From positions 3,674,597-3,738,596 of the forward strand of contig OZ244786.1 in NCBI GenBank assembly GCA_965219675.1: a DNA stretch of 64,000 nucleotides, in the 5' to 3' direction. Positions 34,731 to 37,968 of the stretch are shown here, piece by piece (the first letter of the stretch is position 1; each line of letters begins with the position of its first letter). A program made the translations under genes and the position numbers. The notes beneath the pieces were generated by a model. That model made no database searches, had not been told where the DNA came from, and saw nothing but the letters and a program-made list of their open reading frames with translations. This DNA is from Candidatus Multivorans sp. Lineage in GTDB: Bacteria; Acidobacteriota; Thermoanaerobaculia; Multivoradales; Multivoraceae.

Positions 34731-34905
34731 CTCCCCGCCGGCTGCCGCCGAAGGCGGCCAGGAAGACGCGCGAGGCGTCAGCCTCGCTCCTTACCCTCCG
34801 CCTCCACCAAGGAGAGGCCTTCGGCCTCGCGGACATCCCCGGAACGCCACCGCTCCGCGGTGTCGCCCCGGAAGCCGGCGGGGACGCCGGCGCACCCAGT
34901 GGGGG
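34731..34905 (+). repeat. MITE-like composite REP element (~175 bp) with inverted REP termini
   Basis: Near-identical to 37735-37925; terminal ...CCGGCGGGGACGCCGGCGCACCCAGTGGGGG. Confidence 0.8.
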
Positions 34906-34929
34906 ACGCTCGCGGGTTCTTTCACCGCT

Positions 34930-35556
34930 TCAACCGAGCAACTCCTCTTCGCTCCGCAGCCGCGCCGACGACCACCTCCAGTCAGCCGGCTCCCGGCAGA
35001 GTCCGGCGGTGACCGGGTTAAGCCAGATGTACCGCCGCGCGAAGTAGAGGTGACGAGCGTCGCGGATGTACCGATCGTAGTAGTCCCTCATCCAGAACCG
35101 CCCTTTCCGCCCCAGCAGCCGGTTCGCGCGCCTCGCGGTCACGGACTTCCAGCCCTGAACGATCTCCGGAAGCGGCCGCCGAACCGGTTCGATCAGCACG
35201 TGCACGTGATTCGGCATGACGCACCACTCGATGAGCCGATAGCGGTCCCCGTCGCCGTAGAGCAGTGCATCCTCAACGAGCCTGGCGATCTCCGGCCGTC
35301 TCAGGTGGCATGAGCCGTACCCGGCGTCTTCATACCGGCTGACCAGCCGATGCAGCCTCGCGGCACGGGCTTTGTCCGCTGGACCCTCATTCCCTTCGTC
35401 GCGCCACCGCCTGAGCAAGGCCAGGGGCACACTGTCCGCGAGCCGGAAACCGACGTTCTGAACGGCCTCCGGATGATCGAGGTGCAGGTGGTAGCCCCGT
35501 GAGTGCCACCCCAACGGCGACTTCTGGTCGCGCATCTTCCGGGAATCGGTTGCCAT
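34930..35556 (-). CDS. REP-associated tyrosine transposase (RAYT, IS200/IS605-like Y1 HUH transposase)
   Basis: GWHSRGYHLHLD N-terminus, HUH motif NHVHVLIE, catalytic Tyr region GRFWMRDYYDRYIRD; alternative ATG at 35535; upstream part of track ORF 34930..36021 is non-coding. Confidence 0.7.
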   Translation of the reverse strand: MATDSRKMRDQKSPLGWHSRGYHLHLDHPEAVQNVGFRLADSVPLALLRRWRDEGNEGPADKARAARLHRLVSRYEDAGYGSCHLRRPEIARLVEDALLYGDGDRYRLIEWCVMPNHVHVLIEPVRRPLPEIVQGWKSVTARRANRLLGRKGRFWMRDYYDRYIRDARHLYFARRYIWLNPVTAGLCREPADWRWSSARLRSEEELLG

Positions 35557-35597
35557 CTCCGAAAGAGGTACGGAGGCCACCGCCCTGGCGTCCACCC

Positions 35598-35642
35598 CAC
35601 TGGGTACGCCCGGCGTCCCCGGTCCAGGCAGGCGCCTTACCA
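35598..35642 (+). repeat. degenerate REP array unit (left flank of IS110 insertion)
   Basis: cactgggtacgcccggcgtcccc...ggcgccttacca matches array unit of 37534-37800. Confidence 0.6.
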
Positions 35643-37533
35643 CCGGGACTCCCCACCATTTGTCAAGTGGGTGTATCGCTCGCGATCGGTGTTGTGCGTT
35701 GTTCGGTTTTCCGCAGTCACGTCGAGCGGTGAGGCGAGCCGGTGGCTGGGTTGAGGTGGTTTGGCGGTTTGTTGTTGTCGGGTTCGCCGGGCAGTTGGGC
35801 AGAGGGTTCGGCGGGCTGATGCGGGGCTTCCGGTTCGGGGTATCCGGTGACCGCGTTTCGAGCTGTTTGACGTCGGGCCTGTTCCCGCGTGACGTGCGGG
35901 GCGTCGGCGTGTTCGTCGTGTCGCTCCTTGCCTTGCGGTGCGTGGAAGAGCGTGCGGTCGCGGAGCATGGCGCAAGCGATGCGGAGGAGTCGATCTCCGA
36001 CGATGCGCAGGGCGTGTCCATGCGTCTTGCCTCGGTTTCGGGCGAGGTCGTACTTGTCTCGGCATTGGCTGTCTCGCTGCACGGCGACTCTGGCCCAGTG
36101 GTAGACGGCGTCGGCGAGTCTGTGGTTTCTGGCTCGTCGCTGTCGGACGGTCTTTCTGTTGCCGGACCTGACGGTGACGGGGGCTACACCGGCGAGGCAT
36201 CTCAGAGCTTCGTGGTCTCGTTGTCTCAGTGCCTGTTCGGCCTCGGTCAGGAGGGTGGCGAGCACGTGGTTTCCGATTCCGGGTATGGAGTCGAGGATGG
36301 CGGCGTCGGAGGGTTCGGCGTGGTCGGTCGTGCTCTGCTTGGCCTGCTTGAGGGTTTTCTCAAGCTGGCGCCTGGCCTTGTCGATTTGCGCGTTGTACTG
36401 CTCGAGGATCGGCAGCAGGCTCAGGATGCGGTTTCTGGCGCATTCGACACTGGCGCTTCGTCGCTTGATCGGCTGTGCTTTCAGGCGGTCGGCGAGTTGG
36501 TCGGCGTCGATCCGGCGGACGCGATGCTTCCTGAGCAGCTTGGCGAGGGTGGACTTGGTTGTGCGCCGGGCCTTTTCCGGTGTGGGCAGTCGCTTGTACA
36601 GGTCGATCGCCCAGGGCGTCGTCACGTCGCCGTCGGTCGCGTCGAGAAACTGCGGGTAGTAGTCCACGAGATGCTGTCGGATGCGGTTCGCGATCGCGTT
36701 GCGGTCTTCGACGAGCTCCTTCCGGGCGCGGGCGGCGCCGCGCATTTCGATGACGTCGTCATCGGGCTCCTGGACCGGCCTGAGGCAGTCCGGGTCGGTG
36801 CGCAGGGCCGAGGCCAGGGCCTTGGCGTCTCGCCGGTCGTCCTTGGCGCCGGCGGCGGAGAAGCGGTCGCGGAAGCGGTCGAGTTGCATGGGGTTGATGG
36901 AGTGGACGGGGAAGCCCGATTCCATCAGGGTTTCGACCACGGGTCCGTGCGGCACTTCGATGGCGACCCTGATCCGATGCGCCGGACGCCGTGCGCGGTC
37001 GCGGAGCCAGTCGTTCATGGCGGCAAGCCCCCTGCCGCCATGGTCGAAGGCTCGTTGTTTCACGACCTTGCCCCGGTGATCCATCAGGCAGACGTGGTGT
37101 TTTCGGCTTCCCCAGTCCACGCCGGCGGTAAACGTCGTCGTCATGTCGTCCCCTCCCTGGTGCGTTAGCGTTGGCTTGTCGGCTCACCGCGATGCCGTTC
37201 GGTACCTGTACTGGCGCTCATGGCGCATACTCCCCACTGGATGTCCATCGCGGTGCAGGCAGCCAGGGCACAAATCCCAGTTGGGTGCTCGAGGCACAGT
37301 GCGCCGTTGGTGCTCCTGGCTGCCCGCCGACTTCACAAGGCTCCGGACACCGTCGCGGGAGGGTCCGCCGCGGCGCGGGCCGCGGAAGCTGCCGGCCCCG
37401 CGGAAAACGGCAAGCCGTTTCCCGCCGGACCTTGGAAAACCGGCGGACCGGTTTCCCACAGCTGCCGCAGCCCCGGCGACTACGGCGGATCGGTACGAGA
37501 CGGTGACCGAAAATCAACCACGGAAAGGTACAG
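35643..37533 (-). mobile_element. IS110-family insertion sequence (~1.9 kb) inserted into a REP array unit
   Basis: Transposase CDS flanked by ~77 bp 3' and ~390 bp 5' non-coding ends; flanks reconstitute one REP unit (…gcgccttacca | IS | gtgcgccggcg…). Confidence 0.65.
35717..37144 (-). CDS. IS110-family (DEDD) transposase/recombinase
   Basis: N-terminal AGVDWGSRKHHVCL (DEDD_Tnp_IS110) and C-terminal IPGIG (Transposase_20) motifs; GGGAGG RBS before ATG 37144. Confidence 0.8.
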   Translation of the reverse strand: MTTTFTAGVDWGSRKHHVCLMDHRGKVVKQRAFDHGGRGLAAMNDWLRDRARRPAHRIRVAIEVPHGPVVETLMESGFPVHSINPMQLDRFRDRFSAAGAKDDRRDAKALASALRTDPDCLRPVQEPDDDVIEMRGAARARKELVEDRNAIANRIRQHLVDYYPQFLDATDGDVTTPWAIDLYKRLPTPEKARRTTKSTLAKLLRKHRVRRIDADQLADRLKAQPIKRRSASVECARNRILSLLPILEQYNAQIDKARRQLEKTLKQAKQSTTDHAEPSDAAILDSIPGIGNHVLATLLTEAEQALRQRDHEALRCLAGVAPVTVRSGNRKTVRQRRARNHRLADAVYHWARVAVQRDSQCRDKYDLARNRGKTHGHALRIVGDRLLRIACAMLRDRTLFHAPQGKERHDEHADAPHVTREQARRQTARNAVTGYPEPEAPHQPAEPSAQLPGEPDNNKPPNHLNPATGSPHRST

Positions 37534-37968
37534 GTGCGCCGGCGTCCTCGCCGGCTGCCGCCGAAGGCGGCCAAAGAGTCGCGCGAGGCGCCTTACCACT
37601 GGGTGCGCCGGCGTCCCCGCCGGCTGCCGCCGAAGGCGGCCAAAGAGACGCGCGAAGCGCCTTACCACTGGGTGCGCCGGCGTCCCCGCCGGCTGCCGCC
37701 GAAGGCGGCCAAAGAGACGCGCGAAGCGCCTTACCACTGGGTGCGCCGGCGTCCCCGCCGGCTGCCGCCGAAGGCGGCCAGGGAGTCGCGCGAGGCGTCA
37801 GCCTCGCTCCTTACCCTCCACATCCACCAAGGAGAGGCCTTCGGCCTCGCAGACATCTCCGGAACGCCACCGCTCCGCGGTGTCGCCCCGGAAGCCGGCG
37901 GGGACGCCGGCGCACCCAGTGGGGGACGCTCGTGGGTCTACTGGTCCCTCCGGCGCACCCAGTGGGGG
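37534..37968 (+). repeat. REP tandem array (4 direct 69-bp units) ending in an inverted REP
   Basis: CACTGGGTGCGCCGGCGTCCCCGCCGGCTGCCGCCGAAGGCGGCCAAAGAGACGCGCGAAGCGCCTTACCA x4, then shared core and inverted REP. Confidence 0.85.

What the first reader, a model, noticed from the sequence alone, without database searches (positions are those of the whole stretch)
34731..37968. Cognate RAYT transposase embedded in a REP array
A 201-aa HUH/Y1 transposase (GWHSRGY..., HVHVL, YYDRY) sits between a MITE-like REP composite (34731-34905) and a REP tandem array (35598-35642 and 37534-37968). The same REP core recurs at 17 or more loci in this 64-kb window (6729, 7775, 20645, 26134, 40311-41300, 43950, 46600, 47388, 49171, 51494, 56980, 57609, 58978, 61168, 61659). 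The core CACTGGGTGCGCCGGCGTCCCCGCCGGCTGCCGCCGAAGGCGGCC forms two adjacent hairpins (CCGGCG-TCCC-CGCCGG and GCCGCC-GAA-GGCGGC). Other variants carry GTAG (40380, 40455). This is the textbook RAYT/REP (BIME-like) arrangement, at unusually high density and with several MITE-like subtypes.
Basis: partly seen in the sequence, partly recalled or inferred. Interest (0 to 1): 0.75.

Follow-up and report, generated by a model that had tools for sequence, protein, structure and literature searches.

The report
REP transposase cassette split by IS110
This is an ordinary REP-repeat system (a RAYT-type transposase gene surrounded by the short palindromic repeats it is thought to spread) in an acidobacterial genome, and over half of the flagged interval is a separate RNA-guided IS110 insertion sequence that homes into those repeats.

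Summary
An intact 208-aa HUH/Y1 transposase (34930-35556, minus strand) lies among copies of one REP family. About 40 REP heads occur in the 64-kb window, against 0 expected. The REP is a 9-10 nt single-stranded head (C)ACTGGGTGC followed by a 7-bp GC stem with a 4-nt loop. The stem shows compensatory changes. The same 27-mer occurs in at least 109 loci of Thermoanaerobaculia ('Ca. Multivorans') genomes. RAYT homologues in other genomes and other gene neighbourhoods carry the same REP flanks, heads towards the gene. So this is a REPtron.

Corrections:
- The catalytic tyrosine is Y176 (RYIWLNP), not 'YYDRY'.
- There is no canonical GTAG foot.
That is 58% of the interval.

All 12 IS copies examined, from 5 genomes, sit at the identical REP position with a 2-bp core duplication. 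The predicted bridge RNA (37175-37334) carries four guide segments that match the REP target and the IS ends.

The cassette is absent from the syntenic rsmI-mnmA spacer of a close relative. REPs also lie in frame inside two genes. This is a new member of known kinds, of modest interest.

The parts
34732..34917 (.). About 186-bp REPIN-like composite, type A, copy 1, immediately 3' of the RAYT gene. Its right arm is a perfect REP on the minus strand (34875-34901). Its left REP head and 5' stem arm are missing where it abuts the rsmI stop codon (34727-34729).
   Evidence: REP match; alignment to 37725-37930 and to composites next to RAYTs in L110 and L111; family D8 (96% identical to 37752-37937).
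34930..35556 (-). RAYT (REP-associated HUH/Y1 tyrosine transposase), 208 aa. HUH is H117-V-H119. The catalytic Tyr is Y176 in Y176-IWL-N180-P181.
35598..35647 (+). Degenerate REP unit (CACTGGGTaCGCCcGGCGTCCCCGG..) plus the spacer GCGCCTTACCACCGG. It ends in the left copy of the duplicated GG core (35646-35647). This is the 5' flank of the RAYT and the left half of the REP unit hit by the IS.
35648..37532 (-). IS110-family insertion sequence, 1885 bp, no terminal inverted repeats. GG flanks it on both sides (35646-35647 and 37533-37534). Removing the IS and one GG restores an intact REP junction.
   Evidence: ends and restored empty site; 12 copies, identical junctions; 86-97% DNA identity to L114-L124; close homologues sit on stand-alone contigs of 1.86-1.94 kb.
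35717..37144 (-). IS110 transposase/recombinase, 475 aa, with DEDD_Tnp_IS110 and Transposase_20 domains.
   Evidence: 122 and 58 bits; NF033542, 178.9 bits against a cut-off of 140.
37175..37334 (-). Predicted bridge RNA: an outer stem GTCGGC/GCCGAC enclosing two stem-loops. Guide segments: LTG 37298-37306, RTG 37276-37281, LDG 37229-37237, RDG 37205-37211.
   Evidence: fold, -77 kcal/mol; 97-100% conserved among 6 IS variants; coordinates; 0 of 5000 shuffles contain all four guides; IS621 scheme.
37533..37797 (+). Tandem array of 3.8 copies of a 69-bp REP unit (head, hairpin 1, hairpin 2, GCGAAGC-type mini-hairpin). The first unit has lost its head to the IS insertion.
   Evidence: family D4.
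37735..37921 (.). REPIN composite, type A, copy 2: REP(+) at 37735-37761 and REP(-) at 37895-37921 around a structured spacer. As single-stranded DNA it folds into a long hairpin with a terminal stem of about 30 bp.
   Evidence: -86.2 kcal/mol, z = -10.8; family D8.
37948..37963 (-). Head-only REP fragment (ACTGGGTGCGCCGGaG) next to the mnmA stop codon.
40313..41274 (.). Largest REP cluster in the window: 2.9 copies of a 75-bp unit on the minus strand, then 5 copies of a 142-bp unit on the plus strand.
   Evidence: families D2, D5, D7.
49181..49336 (.). REPIN composite, type B, 156 bp. A second copy at 51517-51672 is 96% identical. It folds as a long hairpin.
   Evidence: -77 kcal/mol, z = -9.9; family D9.
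61159..61346 (.). REP cluster: a TTCT-loop variant REP (61170), REP(+) at 61202 and REP(-) at 61308-61334, forming a REPIN of type C.
   Evidence: pair I14.
57620..57646 (-). Perfect REP lying in frame inside the squalene-hopene cyclase ORF, where it encodes RMPAGTPAHPV.
58974..59090 (-). Three copies of a 39-bp REP unit at the 3' end of the squalene-hopene cyclase ORF. The array is absent from the orthologous site of L069.
20646..20823 (+). REP locus: a head-only copy (20663), a full two-hairpin REP (20698-20742) and short tandem repeats.
43942..44056 (-). REP (43971-44015) plus a head-only copy (44041-44056), between two VWA-domain paralogues.
46573..46740 (+). Head repeats of 21 nt (5.6 copies) interleaved with two full REPs (46644 and 46707).
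   Evidence: family D6.

Best explanation
The interval is a REPtron of a Thermoanaerobaculia (Acidobacteriota) genome that has been interrupted by a REP-homing insertion sequence.

**The REPtron.** An intact RAYT (HUH/Y1 single-strand DNA transposase) is bracketed by two 96%-identical REPIN composites and a tandem REP array, with the REP heads facing the gene. By homology with E. coli TnpA-REP and IS200/IS605 TnpA, the inferred mechanism is this. The enzyme binds the REP hairpin in single-stranded DNA, for example on the lagging-strand template. It reads the conserved 5' head (C)ACTGGGTGC, then cuts and rejoins through Y176 with metal held by H117 and H119. REPs and REPINs thereby spread into other sites, mostly intergenic.

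**The insertion sequence.** An 1885-bp IS110-family element later landed in the head of one array unit. Its bridge RNA pairs with the REP head and 5' stem arm (target GCCGGCGCA-CC-CAGTG in IS orientation) and with its own joined ends (GGGGAGT-CC-TGTACC). It therefore uses the REP population as a multi-copy landing pad.

**Shown here:** protein family, catalytic motifs and fold; REP anatomy, abundance and stem covariation; RAYT-REP association in several genomes; IS boundaries, site specificity and guide complementarity.

**Inferred:** catalysis, which enzyme copy mobilises which REP, and the RNA structure.
For: **RAYT**
- Pfam Y1_Tnp scores 33.6 bits against a cut-off of 23. NCBIfam REP_Tyr_transpos scores 77.7 bits.
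- phmmer to 4ER8 gives E = 1e-4, aligning HVH to HMH and Y176 to Y115.
- H117, H119, Y176, N180, P181, W155, D161, R162 and R165 are invariant in 39 homologues.
- The AF2 model has pLDDT 82, and its best PDB match is 4ER8 (E = 2.3e-7, TM 0.61), ahead of the IS200/IS605 TnpAs.

**REP**
- 29 to 44 copies against 0 expected.
- Hairpin z-scores are -3.3 for REPs and -10 to -11 for REPINs.
- Compensatory stem variants: GCCGACG/CGTCGGC, GCGGGTC/GACCCGC, GCCGGCC/GGCCGGC, GCTGGCG/CGCCAGC. Pairing is 81% in register and 28-57% when shifted.
- The exact 27-mer is found in at least 109 loci of related MAGs.

**Cognate link**
- Homologues at 76-82% identity, in a different neighbourhood (L110-L113) and in L092 and L099, are flanked on both sides by the same REPs and composites, heads towards the gene.
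- A 66% homologue (L169) is flanked by REPINs with the same head but the GCGGGTC stem. A 56% homologue (L166) has CACGGTGCGCCGGCC-type REPs.

**Turnover.** A REP array present in the window is absent at the orthologous site of L069.

**IS110**
- Domains.
- 12 of 12 copies in 5 genomes share identical junctions with a CC/GG core duplication. A 13th junction lies at the contig end of L088.
- Removing the IS restores an intact REP junction.
- A two-loop RNA carries LTG CGGCGCAC, RTG ACTGGG, LDG GTGGGGAGT and RDG GTACAGG in the positions and polarities described for IS621.
- 0 of 5000 shuffles contain all four guides.
Against: - No biochemistry and no whole genome. RAYT copy number, genome-wide REP count and the pairing of RAYT paralogues with REP variants are unknown.
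- The RAYT is just under NCBIfam's curated cut-off, and its REP lacks the GT[AG]G foot of canonical REPs.
- E. coli residue Q95, which contacts GTAG, is replaced by M here.
- The REP immediately 5' of the gene (35598) is degenerate.
- The cassette is absent from the syntenic rsmI-mnmA spacer of a close relative. This does not fit the picture of a fixed, vertically inherited single-copy RAYT.
- The bridge-RNA structure has no covariation support, because the six variants are 97-100% identical there. The LDG does not cover the CC core.
- Residues 1-26 of the model have low confidence.
Confidence: 0.85

Rival explanations
1. The RAYT with its two flanking composites is itself an autonomous mobile unit, an IS-like 'TIRtron', that recently inserted between rsmI and mnmA. 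It is not a domesticated, fixed RAYT that only mobilises REPs in trans.
For: - The 3.2-kb cassette is absent from the conserved iscS-mnmA / rsmI-slt junction of L126 (85-95% aa identity). About a dozen more distant relatives also lack it.
- The closest RAYT homologues sit in another neighbourhood.
- The gene is bracketed by 96%-identical 186-bp composites in direct orientation, so same-strand REPs are available on both sides (family D8).
- RAYT GC3 is 0.82 against about 0.90 for neighbouring genes, similar to the IS at 0.80.
Against: - Only one RAYT occurs in 64 kb, against about 40 REPs.
- Homologous RAYT loci L110-L113 share one neighbourhood across samples, which suggests vertical inheritance there.
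- There is no tnpB.
- The spacer in L126 holds unrelated DNA rather than a clean empty site, so no precise insertion footprint exists.
- This rival does not exclude the main explanation.
Confidence: 0.25
2. The repeats are host structural elements, such as transcript stabilisers, terminators or protein-binding sites. They multiply by slippage and recombination, and the adjacent Y1 gene is a bystander or a relic.
For: - Much of the repeat mass is in tandem arrays (units of 69, 75, 142, 39, 21 and 13 nt) and head-only tandems that slippage could generate.
- The loop plus 3' arm, TCCCCGCCGG, resembles the pre-head sequence CCCCACTGG.
Against: - The RAYT is intact, with every catalytic residue invariant.
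- The same gene-repeat association recurs in different genomes, different neighbourhoods and with co-varying REP stems.
- Dispersed single copies and REPINs at unrelated loci, and presence/absence differences between species, are typical of transposition.
- The hairpins are not followed by T-runs.
Confidence: 0.1
3. The similarity is a compositional artefact of a 70% GC genome.
For: The GC-rich sequence produces many spurious ORFs and short palindromes.
Against: - Dinucleotide-preserving shuffles give 0 matches, against 12 and 29 observed.
- The exact 27-mer is shared by many genomes.
Confidence: 0.01

Closest known systems
E. coli REPtron: TnpA-REP (RayT/YafM, PDB 4ER8) with REP/BIME
   Same: - HUH plus the Y---NP catalytic core. 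4ER8 is the best sequence match (E = 1e-4) and the best fold match.
- The gene is flanked by its own REPs in inverted orientation.
- The REP is a short 5' single-stranded tag plus a GC-rich hairpin.
- REPs are dispersed between genes.
   Different: - The tag is (C)ACTGGGTGC, 9-10 nt, not GTAG.
- The stem is a perfect 7 bp with a 4-nt loop, rather than a long bulged stem.
- The protein has an extra N-terminal segment of about 100 aa containing the GWHSRGYxPH motif.
- Only about 14% identity to 4ER8.
- Below the NCBIfam equivalog cut-off.
REPIN-RAYT systems of Pseudomonas (Bertels & Rainey 2011, PMC3116915; RAYT groups 2 and 3)
   Same: - Inverted REP doublets that fold into long hairpins.
- Many REPINs for each RAYT.
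- REPINs flank the RAYT.
   Different: - The spacers are long (about 80-130 bp), structured and conserved as element subtypes.
- There are large tandem arrays.
- The RAYT locus is not conserved in a close relative, whereas group 2 and 3 RAYTs are described as vertically inherited single-copy genes (PMC5581495 abstract).
TIRtrons/TIRYTs and atypical REPtrons (Di Nocera 2013, PMC3733652; Quentin 2018, PMC6006769, subclass 2.6 and class 3)
   Same: Y1 transposases, including a sharply defined acidobacterial group, flanked by inverted repeats that lack GTAG and are sometimes moderately abundant in the genome.
   Different: - Ours has the class-2 signature Y---NP, not the class-3 Y----Q.
- Its head is not the class-3 foot CnGA.
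- The GGGGWSAS motif of some TIRs is not matched.
- Whether it is the same protein group as the Koribacter/Terriglobus TIRYTs could not be tested, because no reference sequences were available.
IS621 (E. coli) and ISPpu9/ISPpu10 (P. putida): REP-targeting IS110-family bridge recombinases
   Same: - DEDD plus Tnp_20 recombinase.
- No terminal inverted repeats and a 2-bp core.
- A non-coding RNA upstream of the gene with two loops. The 5' sides match the top strand and the 3' sides are antisense to the core plus right flank (PMC11208160).
- Insertion into the conserved tag end of the REP next to the hairpin.
- A hairpin 5' of the target, as ISPpu10 requires (abstract).
   Different: - The core is CC, not CT.
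- The target is GCCGGCGCA-CC-CAGTG.
- The LDG does not pair with the core.
- The recombinase is 475 aa with a long C-terminal tail.
- Nothing was tested experimentally, and there is no Rfam family to compare with.
IS200/IS605 insertion sequences
   Same: Same HUH/Y1 fold (ranks 2-30) and subterminal hairpins recognised as single-stranded DNA.
   Different: - No tnpB.
- The Y motif is Y---NP, not Y----Q.
- The repeats vastly outnumber the gene.
- NCBIfam transpos_IS200 scores only 19.8 bits against a cut-off of 55.

Membership tests
RAYT / TnpA-REP (class 2 TnpA-Y1) | HUH metal-binding motif | tested here: met
   H117-V-H119 aligns to the H-M-H of 4ER8 and is invariant in 39 homologues.
RAYT / TnpA-REP (class 2 TnpA-Y1) | Catalytic Tyr in the class-2 signature Y---NP (Quentin 2018) | tested here: met
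   Y176-I-W-L-N180-P181 aligns to Y115-IYI-NP of 4ER8 and is invariant.
RAYT / TnpA-REP (class 2 TnpA-Y1) | TnpA-REP-like fold | tested here: met
   AF2 model pLDDT 82. The Foldseek top hit is 4ER8, E = 2.3e-7, TM 0.61 normalised on the target.
RAYT / TnpA-REP (class 2 TnpA-Y1) | Passes curated family profiles | tested here: inconclusive
   Pfam Y1_Tnp scores 33.6, above 23. NCBIfam NF047646 REP_Tyr_transpos scores 77.7, below 80, and only profile positions 41-146 match.
RAYT / TnpA-REP (class 2 TnpA-Y1) | Gene flanked by REPs that are also dispersed in many copies in the genome | tested here: met
   window; related genomes; homologues flanked in the same way.
RAYT / TnpA-REP (class 2 TnpA-Y1) | Residues that read the REP tag (E. 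coli W94, Q95, E100, H101, R104) | tested here: inconclusive
   W155 and R165 are conserved. E is replaced by D161 and H by R162, as in subclasses 2.5 and 2.7. Q is replaced by M156.
RAYT / TnpA-REP (class 2 TnpA-Y1) | Single copy per genome, vertically inherited (groups 2 and 3) | tested here: inconclusive
   One copy in the 64-kb window. The cassette is absent at the syntenic site of L126. No whole genome was available.
RAYT / TnpA-REP (class 2 TnpA-Y1) | Cleaves and rejoins single-stranded REP DNA | not testable with these tools
   Needs biochemistry.
Canonical REP (GTAG superfamily) | 5' GT[AG]G tetranucleotide at the foot of the hairpin | tested here: not met
   The head is (C)ACTGGGTGC. 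The GTAG at 40381 and 40456 is on the opposite strand, 3' of the hairpin and 7 nt from the stem.
Canonical REP (GTAG superfamily) | Short imperfect palindrome, multi-copy, mostly extragenic | tested here: met
   Exceptions: in-frame copies inside two genes.
REPIN | Two REPs in inverted orientation that can form one long hairpin and recur as a unit | tested here: met
   37735-37921, 49195-49335, 51531-51671 and 61202-61334. Families D8 and D9 are 96% identical. The composite is conserved in L110 and L111.
IS110 family (bridge-RNA recombinase IS) | DEDD RuvC-like N-terminal domain plus Transposase_20 C-terminal domain | tested here: met
   PF01548 at 122 bits and PF02371 at 58 bits. NF033542 at 178.9 bits, above 140.
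IS110 family (bridge-RNA recombinase IS) | No terminal inverted repeats, a short core duplicated at both junctions, one specific target | tested here: met
   12 copies with identical junctions and a CC core. Restored empty site.
IS110 family (bridge-RNA recombinase IS) | Non-coding RNA with target-binding and donor-binding loops complementary to the target and to the joined ends | tested here: met
   Four guides in the expected order and polarity. The structure itself is predicted only, with no covariation.
IS110 family (bridge-RNA recombinase IS) | Circular intermediate and RNA-guided recombination activity | not testable with these tools
   Needs reads or experiments.
IS200/IS605 | Autonomous multi-copy IS with TnpA (Y----Q), usually with tnpB | tested here: not met
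   NF033573 scores 19.8 bits, below 55. The motif is Y---NP. There is no tnpB and only one copy.

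The most novel reading that the evidence does not exclude
This RAYT subfamily may be an unclassified, REP-active class. Its features are the N-terminal GWHSRGYxPH extension, the non-GTAG head ACTGGGTGC and a score below the curated RAYT profile. It would have driven an exceptional REP load in sponge-associated Thermoanaerobaculia: about 0.6-0.9 heads per kb, extrapolating to a few thousand per genome. 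That load would be large enough that REPs are repeatedly written in frame into proteins (squalene-hopene cyclase and a VWA protein). The conserved REP head would also have become the programmed landing pad of a bridge-RNA IS110 lineage. Two unrelated mobile systems, one HUH-based and one RNA-guided, would then read the same 15-nt DNA module.
Probability: 0.35. Interest if true: 0.5.

Novelty: new member of a known kind. Interest (0 to 1): 0.33.

Why it matters
- **Reach of REPtrons.** RAYT/REP systems are extended to Thermoanaerobaculia (Acidobacteriota) with a non-GTAG head. This gives a natural test of how Y1 transposases read their DNA tag.
- **A candidate bridge recombinase.** The window supplies a clean natural case of a bridge-RNA IS110 whose guides and target can be read directly from the sequence: 12 of 12 insertions at one REP position, with the hairpin adjacent to the target. 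It could be tested as a bridge recombinase from a high-GC genome.
- **Annotation.** In these genomes REPs inflate ORFs and sit in frame inside real genes, so gene calls need care.
- **Scope.** None of this overturns current understanding.

Tried and rejected
- **Rfam.** No family matched at gathering threshold on the whole window or at E up to 1 on 34700-38000. No bridge RNA or REP family is available for comparison.
- **Bridge RNA covariation.** RNAalifold on six bridge-RNA variants found no compensatory pairs, because the sequences are too similar.
- **RAYT subclass.** I tried to place the RAYT in the Quentin or Bertels subclasses. The supplements held no usable sequences or terms, so only the class-2 signature could be assigned.
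- **Synteny in the first loci.** The first 124 loci held no rsmI or mnmA. A metagenome scan with MnmA solved this.
- **363-aa ORF.** I rejected the maximal ORF 34930-36021. It runs into the IS, and homologues start at MATDS.
- **GTAG.** I rejected 'GTAG variants' as a class marker.
- **Target-site rules.** I rejected reading REP insertion target-site rules from the one filled/empty pair (58968-59120 against L069), because the insert includes non-REP DNA.
- **Chance hits.** I rejected 3300 and 48348, which have 1 mismatch and no hairpin. 53564 also has 1 mismatch and no hairpin but was not examined further.
- **IS110 next to the RAYT.** I considered whether this position is functional. None of the other 11 IS copies is next to a RAYT, so it is best explained by the local density of REP targets.

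Full report
**1. What is in the interval**

The window is 70% GC. Between rsmI (34028-34729, +; TIGR00096 at 184 bits) and mnmA (37971-39305, -; PRK00143 at 386 bits), the features in order are:
- a 186-bp inverted-REP composite (34732-34917);
- a 208-aa Y1 transposase gene on the minus strand (34930-35556);
- a degenerate REP unit (35598-35647);
- an 1885-bp IS110-family element on the minus strand (35648-37532);
- 3.8 copies of a 69-bp REP unit (37533-37797);
- a second copy of the 186-bp composite (37735-37937, 96% identical to the first);
- a head-only REP fragment (37948-37963).

**2. The repeat is real and is a REP**
- The 45-nt core has 12 matches at up to 3 mismatches. The 27-nt head plus hairpin has 29. 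Shuffles give none.
- Anchoring on the head alone finds about 40 genuine copies in 64 kb.
- The anatomy is an unpaired head (C)ACTGGGTGC, a 7-bp stem GCCGGCG/CGCCGGC and a loop TCCC or TCCT. A second hairpin, GCCGCC-GAA-GGCGGC, often follows (-17.7 kcal/mol, z = -3.3).
- I collected 300 exact-head copies from the window and related loci. Their stems vary by double, compensating changes: GCCGACG/CGTCGGC, GCGGGTC/GACCCGC, GCCGGCC/GGCCGGC and GCTGGCG/CGCCAGC. Pairing is 81% in register and 28-57% when the partner is shifted.
- Inverted REP pairs form REPIN-like composites of at least three subtypes, which fold as long hairpins (z about -10).
All are in Acidobacteriota / Thermoanaerobaculia / 'Ca. 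Multivorans' MAGs, including several whose isolate labels (SB0665-SB0670, COS, RHO) I take, from my own knowledge and untested here, to be sponge-derived.
- The window itself is 86-94% identical in DNA to parts of OZ246956.1 (L069).

**3. The protein is a RAYT**
- Pfam Y1_Tnp is passed: 33.6 bits against a cut-off of 23. NCBIfam REP_Tyr_transpos is narrowly missed: 77.7 against 80 bits, covering profile positions 41-146 only. transpos_IS200 is far below its cut-off.
- The only solved relative by sequence is E. coli TnpA-REP, PDB 4ER8 (E = 1e-4). In that alignment HVH (117-119) matches HMH, and Y176 of RRYIWLNPV matches the catalytic Y115 of DYIYINPV.
- In 39 homologues H117, H119, Y176, N180 and P181 are invariant. 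So are W155, D161, R162, R165 and an N-terminal R20/H25/R38 (the GWHSRGYxPH...FRL motif).
- Y---NP is the class-2 (TnpA-REP) signature of Quentin et al. 2018. Their class 3, which includes Acidobacteria, has Y----Q.
- An AlphaFold model (pLDDT 82) finds 4ER8 first (E = 2.3e-7, TM 0.61), then the IS200/IS605 transposases.

**4. The RAYT and the REP belong together**
- The nearest homologues (76-82% identity) lie in another gene neighbourhood, between molybdopterin oxidoreductase/cytochrome c genes and Fer4 genes. They are still flanked on both sides by the same REPs and by the same ~190-bp composite, with the heads next to the gene. L092 and L099 show the same arrangement.
- A 66% homologue (L169) is flanked by REPINs with the same head but the GCGGGTC/GACCCGC stem.
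- A 56% homologue (L166) has CACGGTGCGCCGGCC-TCCA-GGCCGGC repeats.
- A 50% homologue inside a his operon (L168) has no such flanks.
- Gene and repeat therefore change together. This is the usual operational definition of 'cognate'.

**5. The missed element**
- ORF 35717-37144 is an IS110 recombinase (DEDD_Tnp_IS110 plus Transposase_20; NF033542 at 178.9 bits).
- Close homologues (73-95% identity) mostly sit on stand-alone contigs of 1.86-1.94 kb, as expected for a collapsed multi-copy IS.
- I recovered eleven further copies with flanks from four other assemblies. In all twelve the junctions are ...GCCGGCGCACC|TGTACCTTTCC...IS...AAATGGTGGGGAGT|CCCAGTG... That is one position in the REP head with the CC core duplicated (GG in REP orientation). 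A thirteenth junction lies at a contig end.
- In the window, deleting 35648-37532 plus one GG restores GCGCCTTACCACCGGGTGCGCCGGCG..., a normal unit junction.
- The 388-nt leader contains a 160-nt segment that is 97-100% conserved among IS variants whose remaining DNA is about 86% identical. It folds into an outer stem with two stem-loops.
- Following the IS621 rules (5' side of each loop same sense as the top strand, 8-9 nt; 3' side antisense to the core plus right flank, 4-7 nt; PMC11208160), the guides are:

| Loop | Guide | Sequence | Matches |
|---|---|---|---|
| 1 | LTG | CGGCGCAC(T/C) | LT CGGCGCA plus core |
| 1 | RTG | ACTGGG | reverse complement of CC-CAGT |
| 2 | LDG | GTGGGGAGT | right end of the IS |
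| 2 | RDG | GTACAGG | reverse complement of CC-TGTAC |

- No shuffle out of 5000 contains all four guides.
- This is the same behaviour as IS621 in E. coli REPs and ISPpu10 in P. putida.
- The structure has no covariation support, and nothing here shows activity.

**6. Genomic context**
- The order iscS-mnmA / rsmI-slt is conserved in many related metagenome contigs, with spacers as short as about 40-250 bp.
- In the close relative L126 (aa identity: IscS 96%, RsmI 94%, Slt 91%, MnmA 85%) the 250-bp spacer holds a small unrelated ORF and no RAYT, IS or REP.
- The cassette is therefore lineage-specific at this site. It is bracketed by direct copies of the composite, and its GC3 is lower than that of its neighbours.
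- This keeps open the possibility that the RAYT unit itself moves (rival 1).
- REP loci also differ between the window and L069. The 3 x 39-bp array at 58974-59090 is missing there, and gene-sized indels abut REPs at about 60.1-61.3 kb and 61.7 kb.

**7. Density and 'extragenic'**
- About 40 heads in 64 kb is 0.63 per kb.
- Three contigs fetched through mnmA, and so not selected for REPs, carry 22 heads in 25 kb, although two of them overlap.
- From my own knowledge, E. coli K-12 has roughly 0.13 per kb, so the density is high. A genome-wide figure is an extrapolation.
- By my own rough sum of the repeat coordinates, not a computed figure, REP-derived DNA is about 3.2 kb, or about 5% of the window.
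- Most copies are intergenic or lie in over-extended ORF starts. Two lie in frame inside genes.
  - In squalene-hopene cyclase (56903-59113; both Pfam domains), REP 57620-57646 encodes RMPAGTPAHPV in a loop whose length differs among three orthologues. The 3' array adds (RMPAGTPAHPVAE) x 3.
  - In the second of two VWA paralogues (about 43.9-46.6 kb), REP 45121-45148 encodes ..ARGPAHPVAE.., which is absent from the first paralogue.
- Intragenic REPs have been reported before (PMC3733652 abstract; PMC6006769).

**8. Comparison and verdict**
- It works like a REPtron/REPIN-RAYT system, with a REP-homing bridge-RNA IS on top.
- As a member of the RAYT family it meets the catalytic, fold and REP-association criteria. 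It fails the canonical GT[AG]G-foot criterion and narrowly misses one curated profile. Non-GTAG REPtrons and acidobacterial 'TIRYTs' are already described.
- The subclass could not be assigned.

Noticed in passing
window 56903-59113 (REP at 57620-57646; array 58974-59090); L069 675-3047; L101 1883-4282: A perfect REP lies in frame inside the squalene-hopene cyclase gene. It encodes RMPAGTPAHPV in a surface-loop position of the N-terminal domain. The loop is shorter in the L069 orthologue and about 40 aa longer in L101. A 3 x 39-bp REP array is read through as a C-terminal (RMPAGTPAHPVAE) x 3 tail that L069 lacks.
   Followed up: partly
window about 43929-46589 (+), REP at 45121-45148; paralogue 41344-43926: A second VWA-domain gene, paralogous to 41344-43926 (340 identical residues in the alignment), carries an in-frame REP-derived insert (..EPEPEPARGPAHPVAEHPVAGRP..) that the paralogue lacks. 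My GC3 filter did not pick the gene up (the ORF listing entry 41334..46589 spans it only as a fused ORF), and it gave no Pfam hit when the opposite strand was scanned.
   Followed up: partly
window 16530-16745: The 3' ~55 nt of tRNA-Sec (16530-16629) are repeated directly 83 bp downstream (83-bp period, 2.1 copies, 96% matching). This may be the remnant of an integration or excision event at the tRNA.
   Followed up: no
window 20646-20714, 44041-44056, 46573-46740, 51468-51541, 37948-37963; L099 upstream of its RAYT: Tandem 'head-only' repeats (periods 36, 21 and 13 nt) sit immediately 5' of complete REPs, always in the same orientation. They also occur next to a RAYT in another genome. The loop plus 3' arm (TCCCCGCCGG) resembles the sequence before the head (CCCCACTGG), so slippage is plausible. 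They could also be footprints of RAYT action.
   Followed up: partly
window-wide, e.g. 37560, 37629, 37651, 40393, 49235, 61234: Mini-hairpins with a GNA triloop closed by C:G are about twice as frequent as in block shuffles (64 against 34 +/- 6). Examples are GCCgaaGGC (15 copies) and CGCgaaGCG (9 copies), the motif known as an unusually stable DNA hairpin. Many are modules of the REP units.
   Followed up: partly
window 49181-49336 and 51517-51672: Two 96%-identical 156-bp REPIN composites in direct orientation bracket two minus-strand genes (49344-49871 and 50043-51452). This is the same geometry as the composites that bracket the RAYT.
   Followed up: no
window 60132-61334 and 61674-62128 against L069 4059-4166 and 4506-6658: Gene-sized differences from the related genome lie exactly at REP clusters. 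An epimerase gene (60156-61154) is present only in the window, and about 2.1 kb is present only in L069.
   Followed up: partly
L126 2490-2739 (rsmI-mnmA spacer of a close relative); L125 and L127: The spacer that holds the RAYT cassette in the window holds a small unrelated ORF (MRRMYSVTAIWDDEAQVFYSESDIEGLH...) in L126. In L125 the rsmI-slt block is rearranged relative to iscS-mnmA. The junction is a variable spot.
   Followed up: no
window 54217-54317 and 56027-56127: A 101-nt direct repeat (78% identity) that is not REP-related, in a region where I found no ORF with high GC3.
   Followed up: no
window 34716-34729: The last codons of rsmI (..GGC CGG CGC CCC TGA) supply a GCCGGCG arm that can pair with the truncated composite's CGCCGGC. 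L126 has the same GGCCGGCG at its rsmI end, so the arm is native gene sequence. This may be microhomology at the junction.
   Followed up: partly
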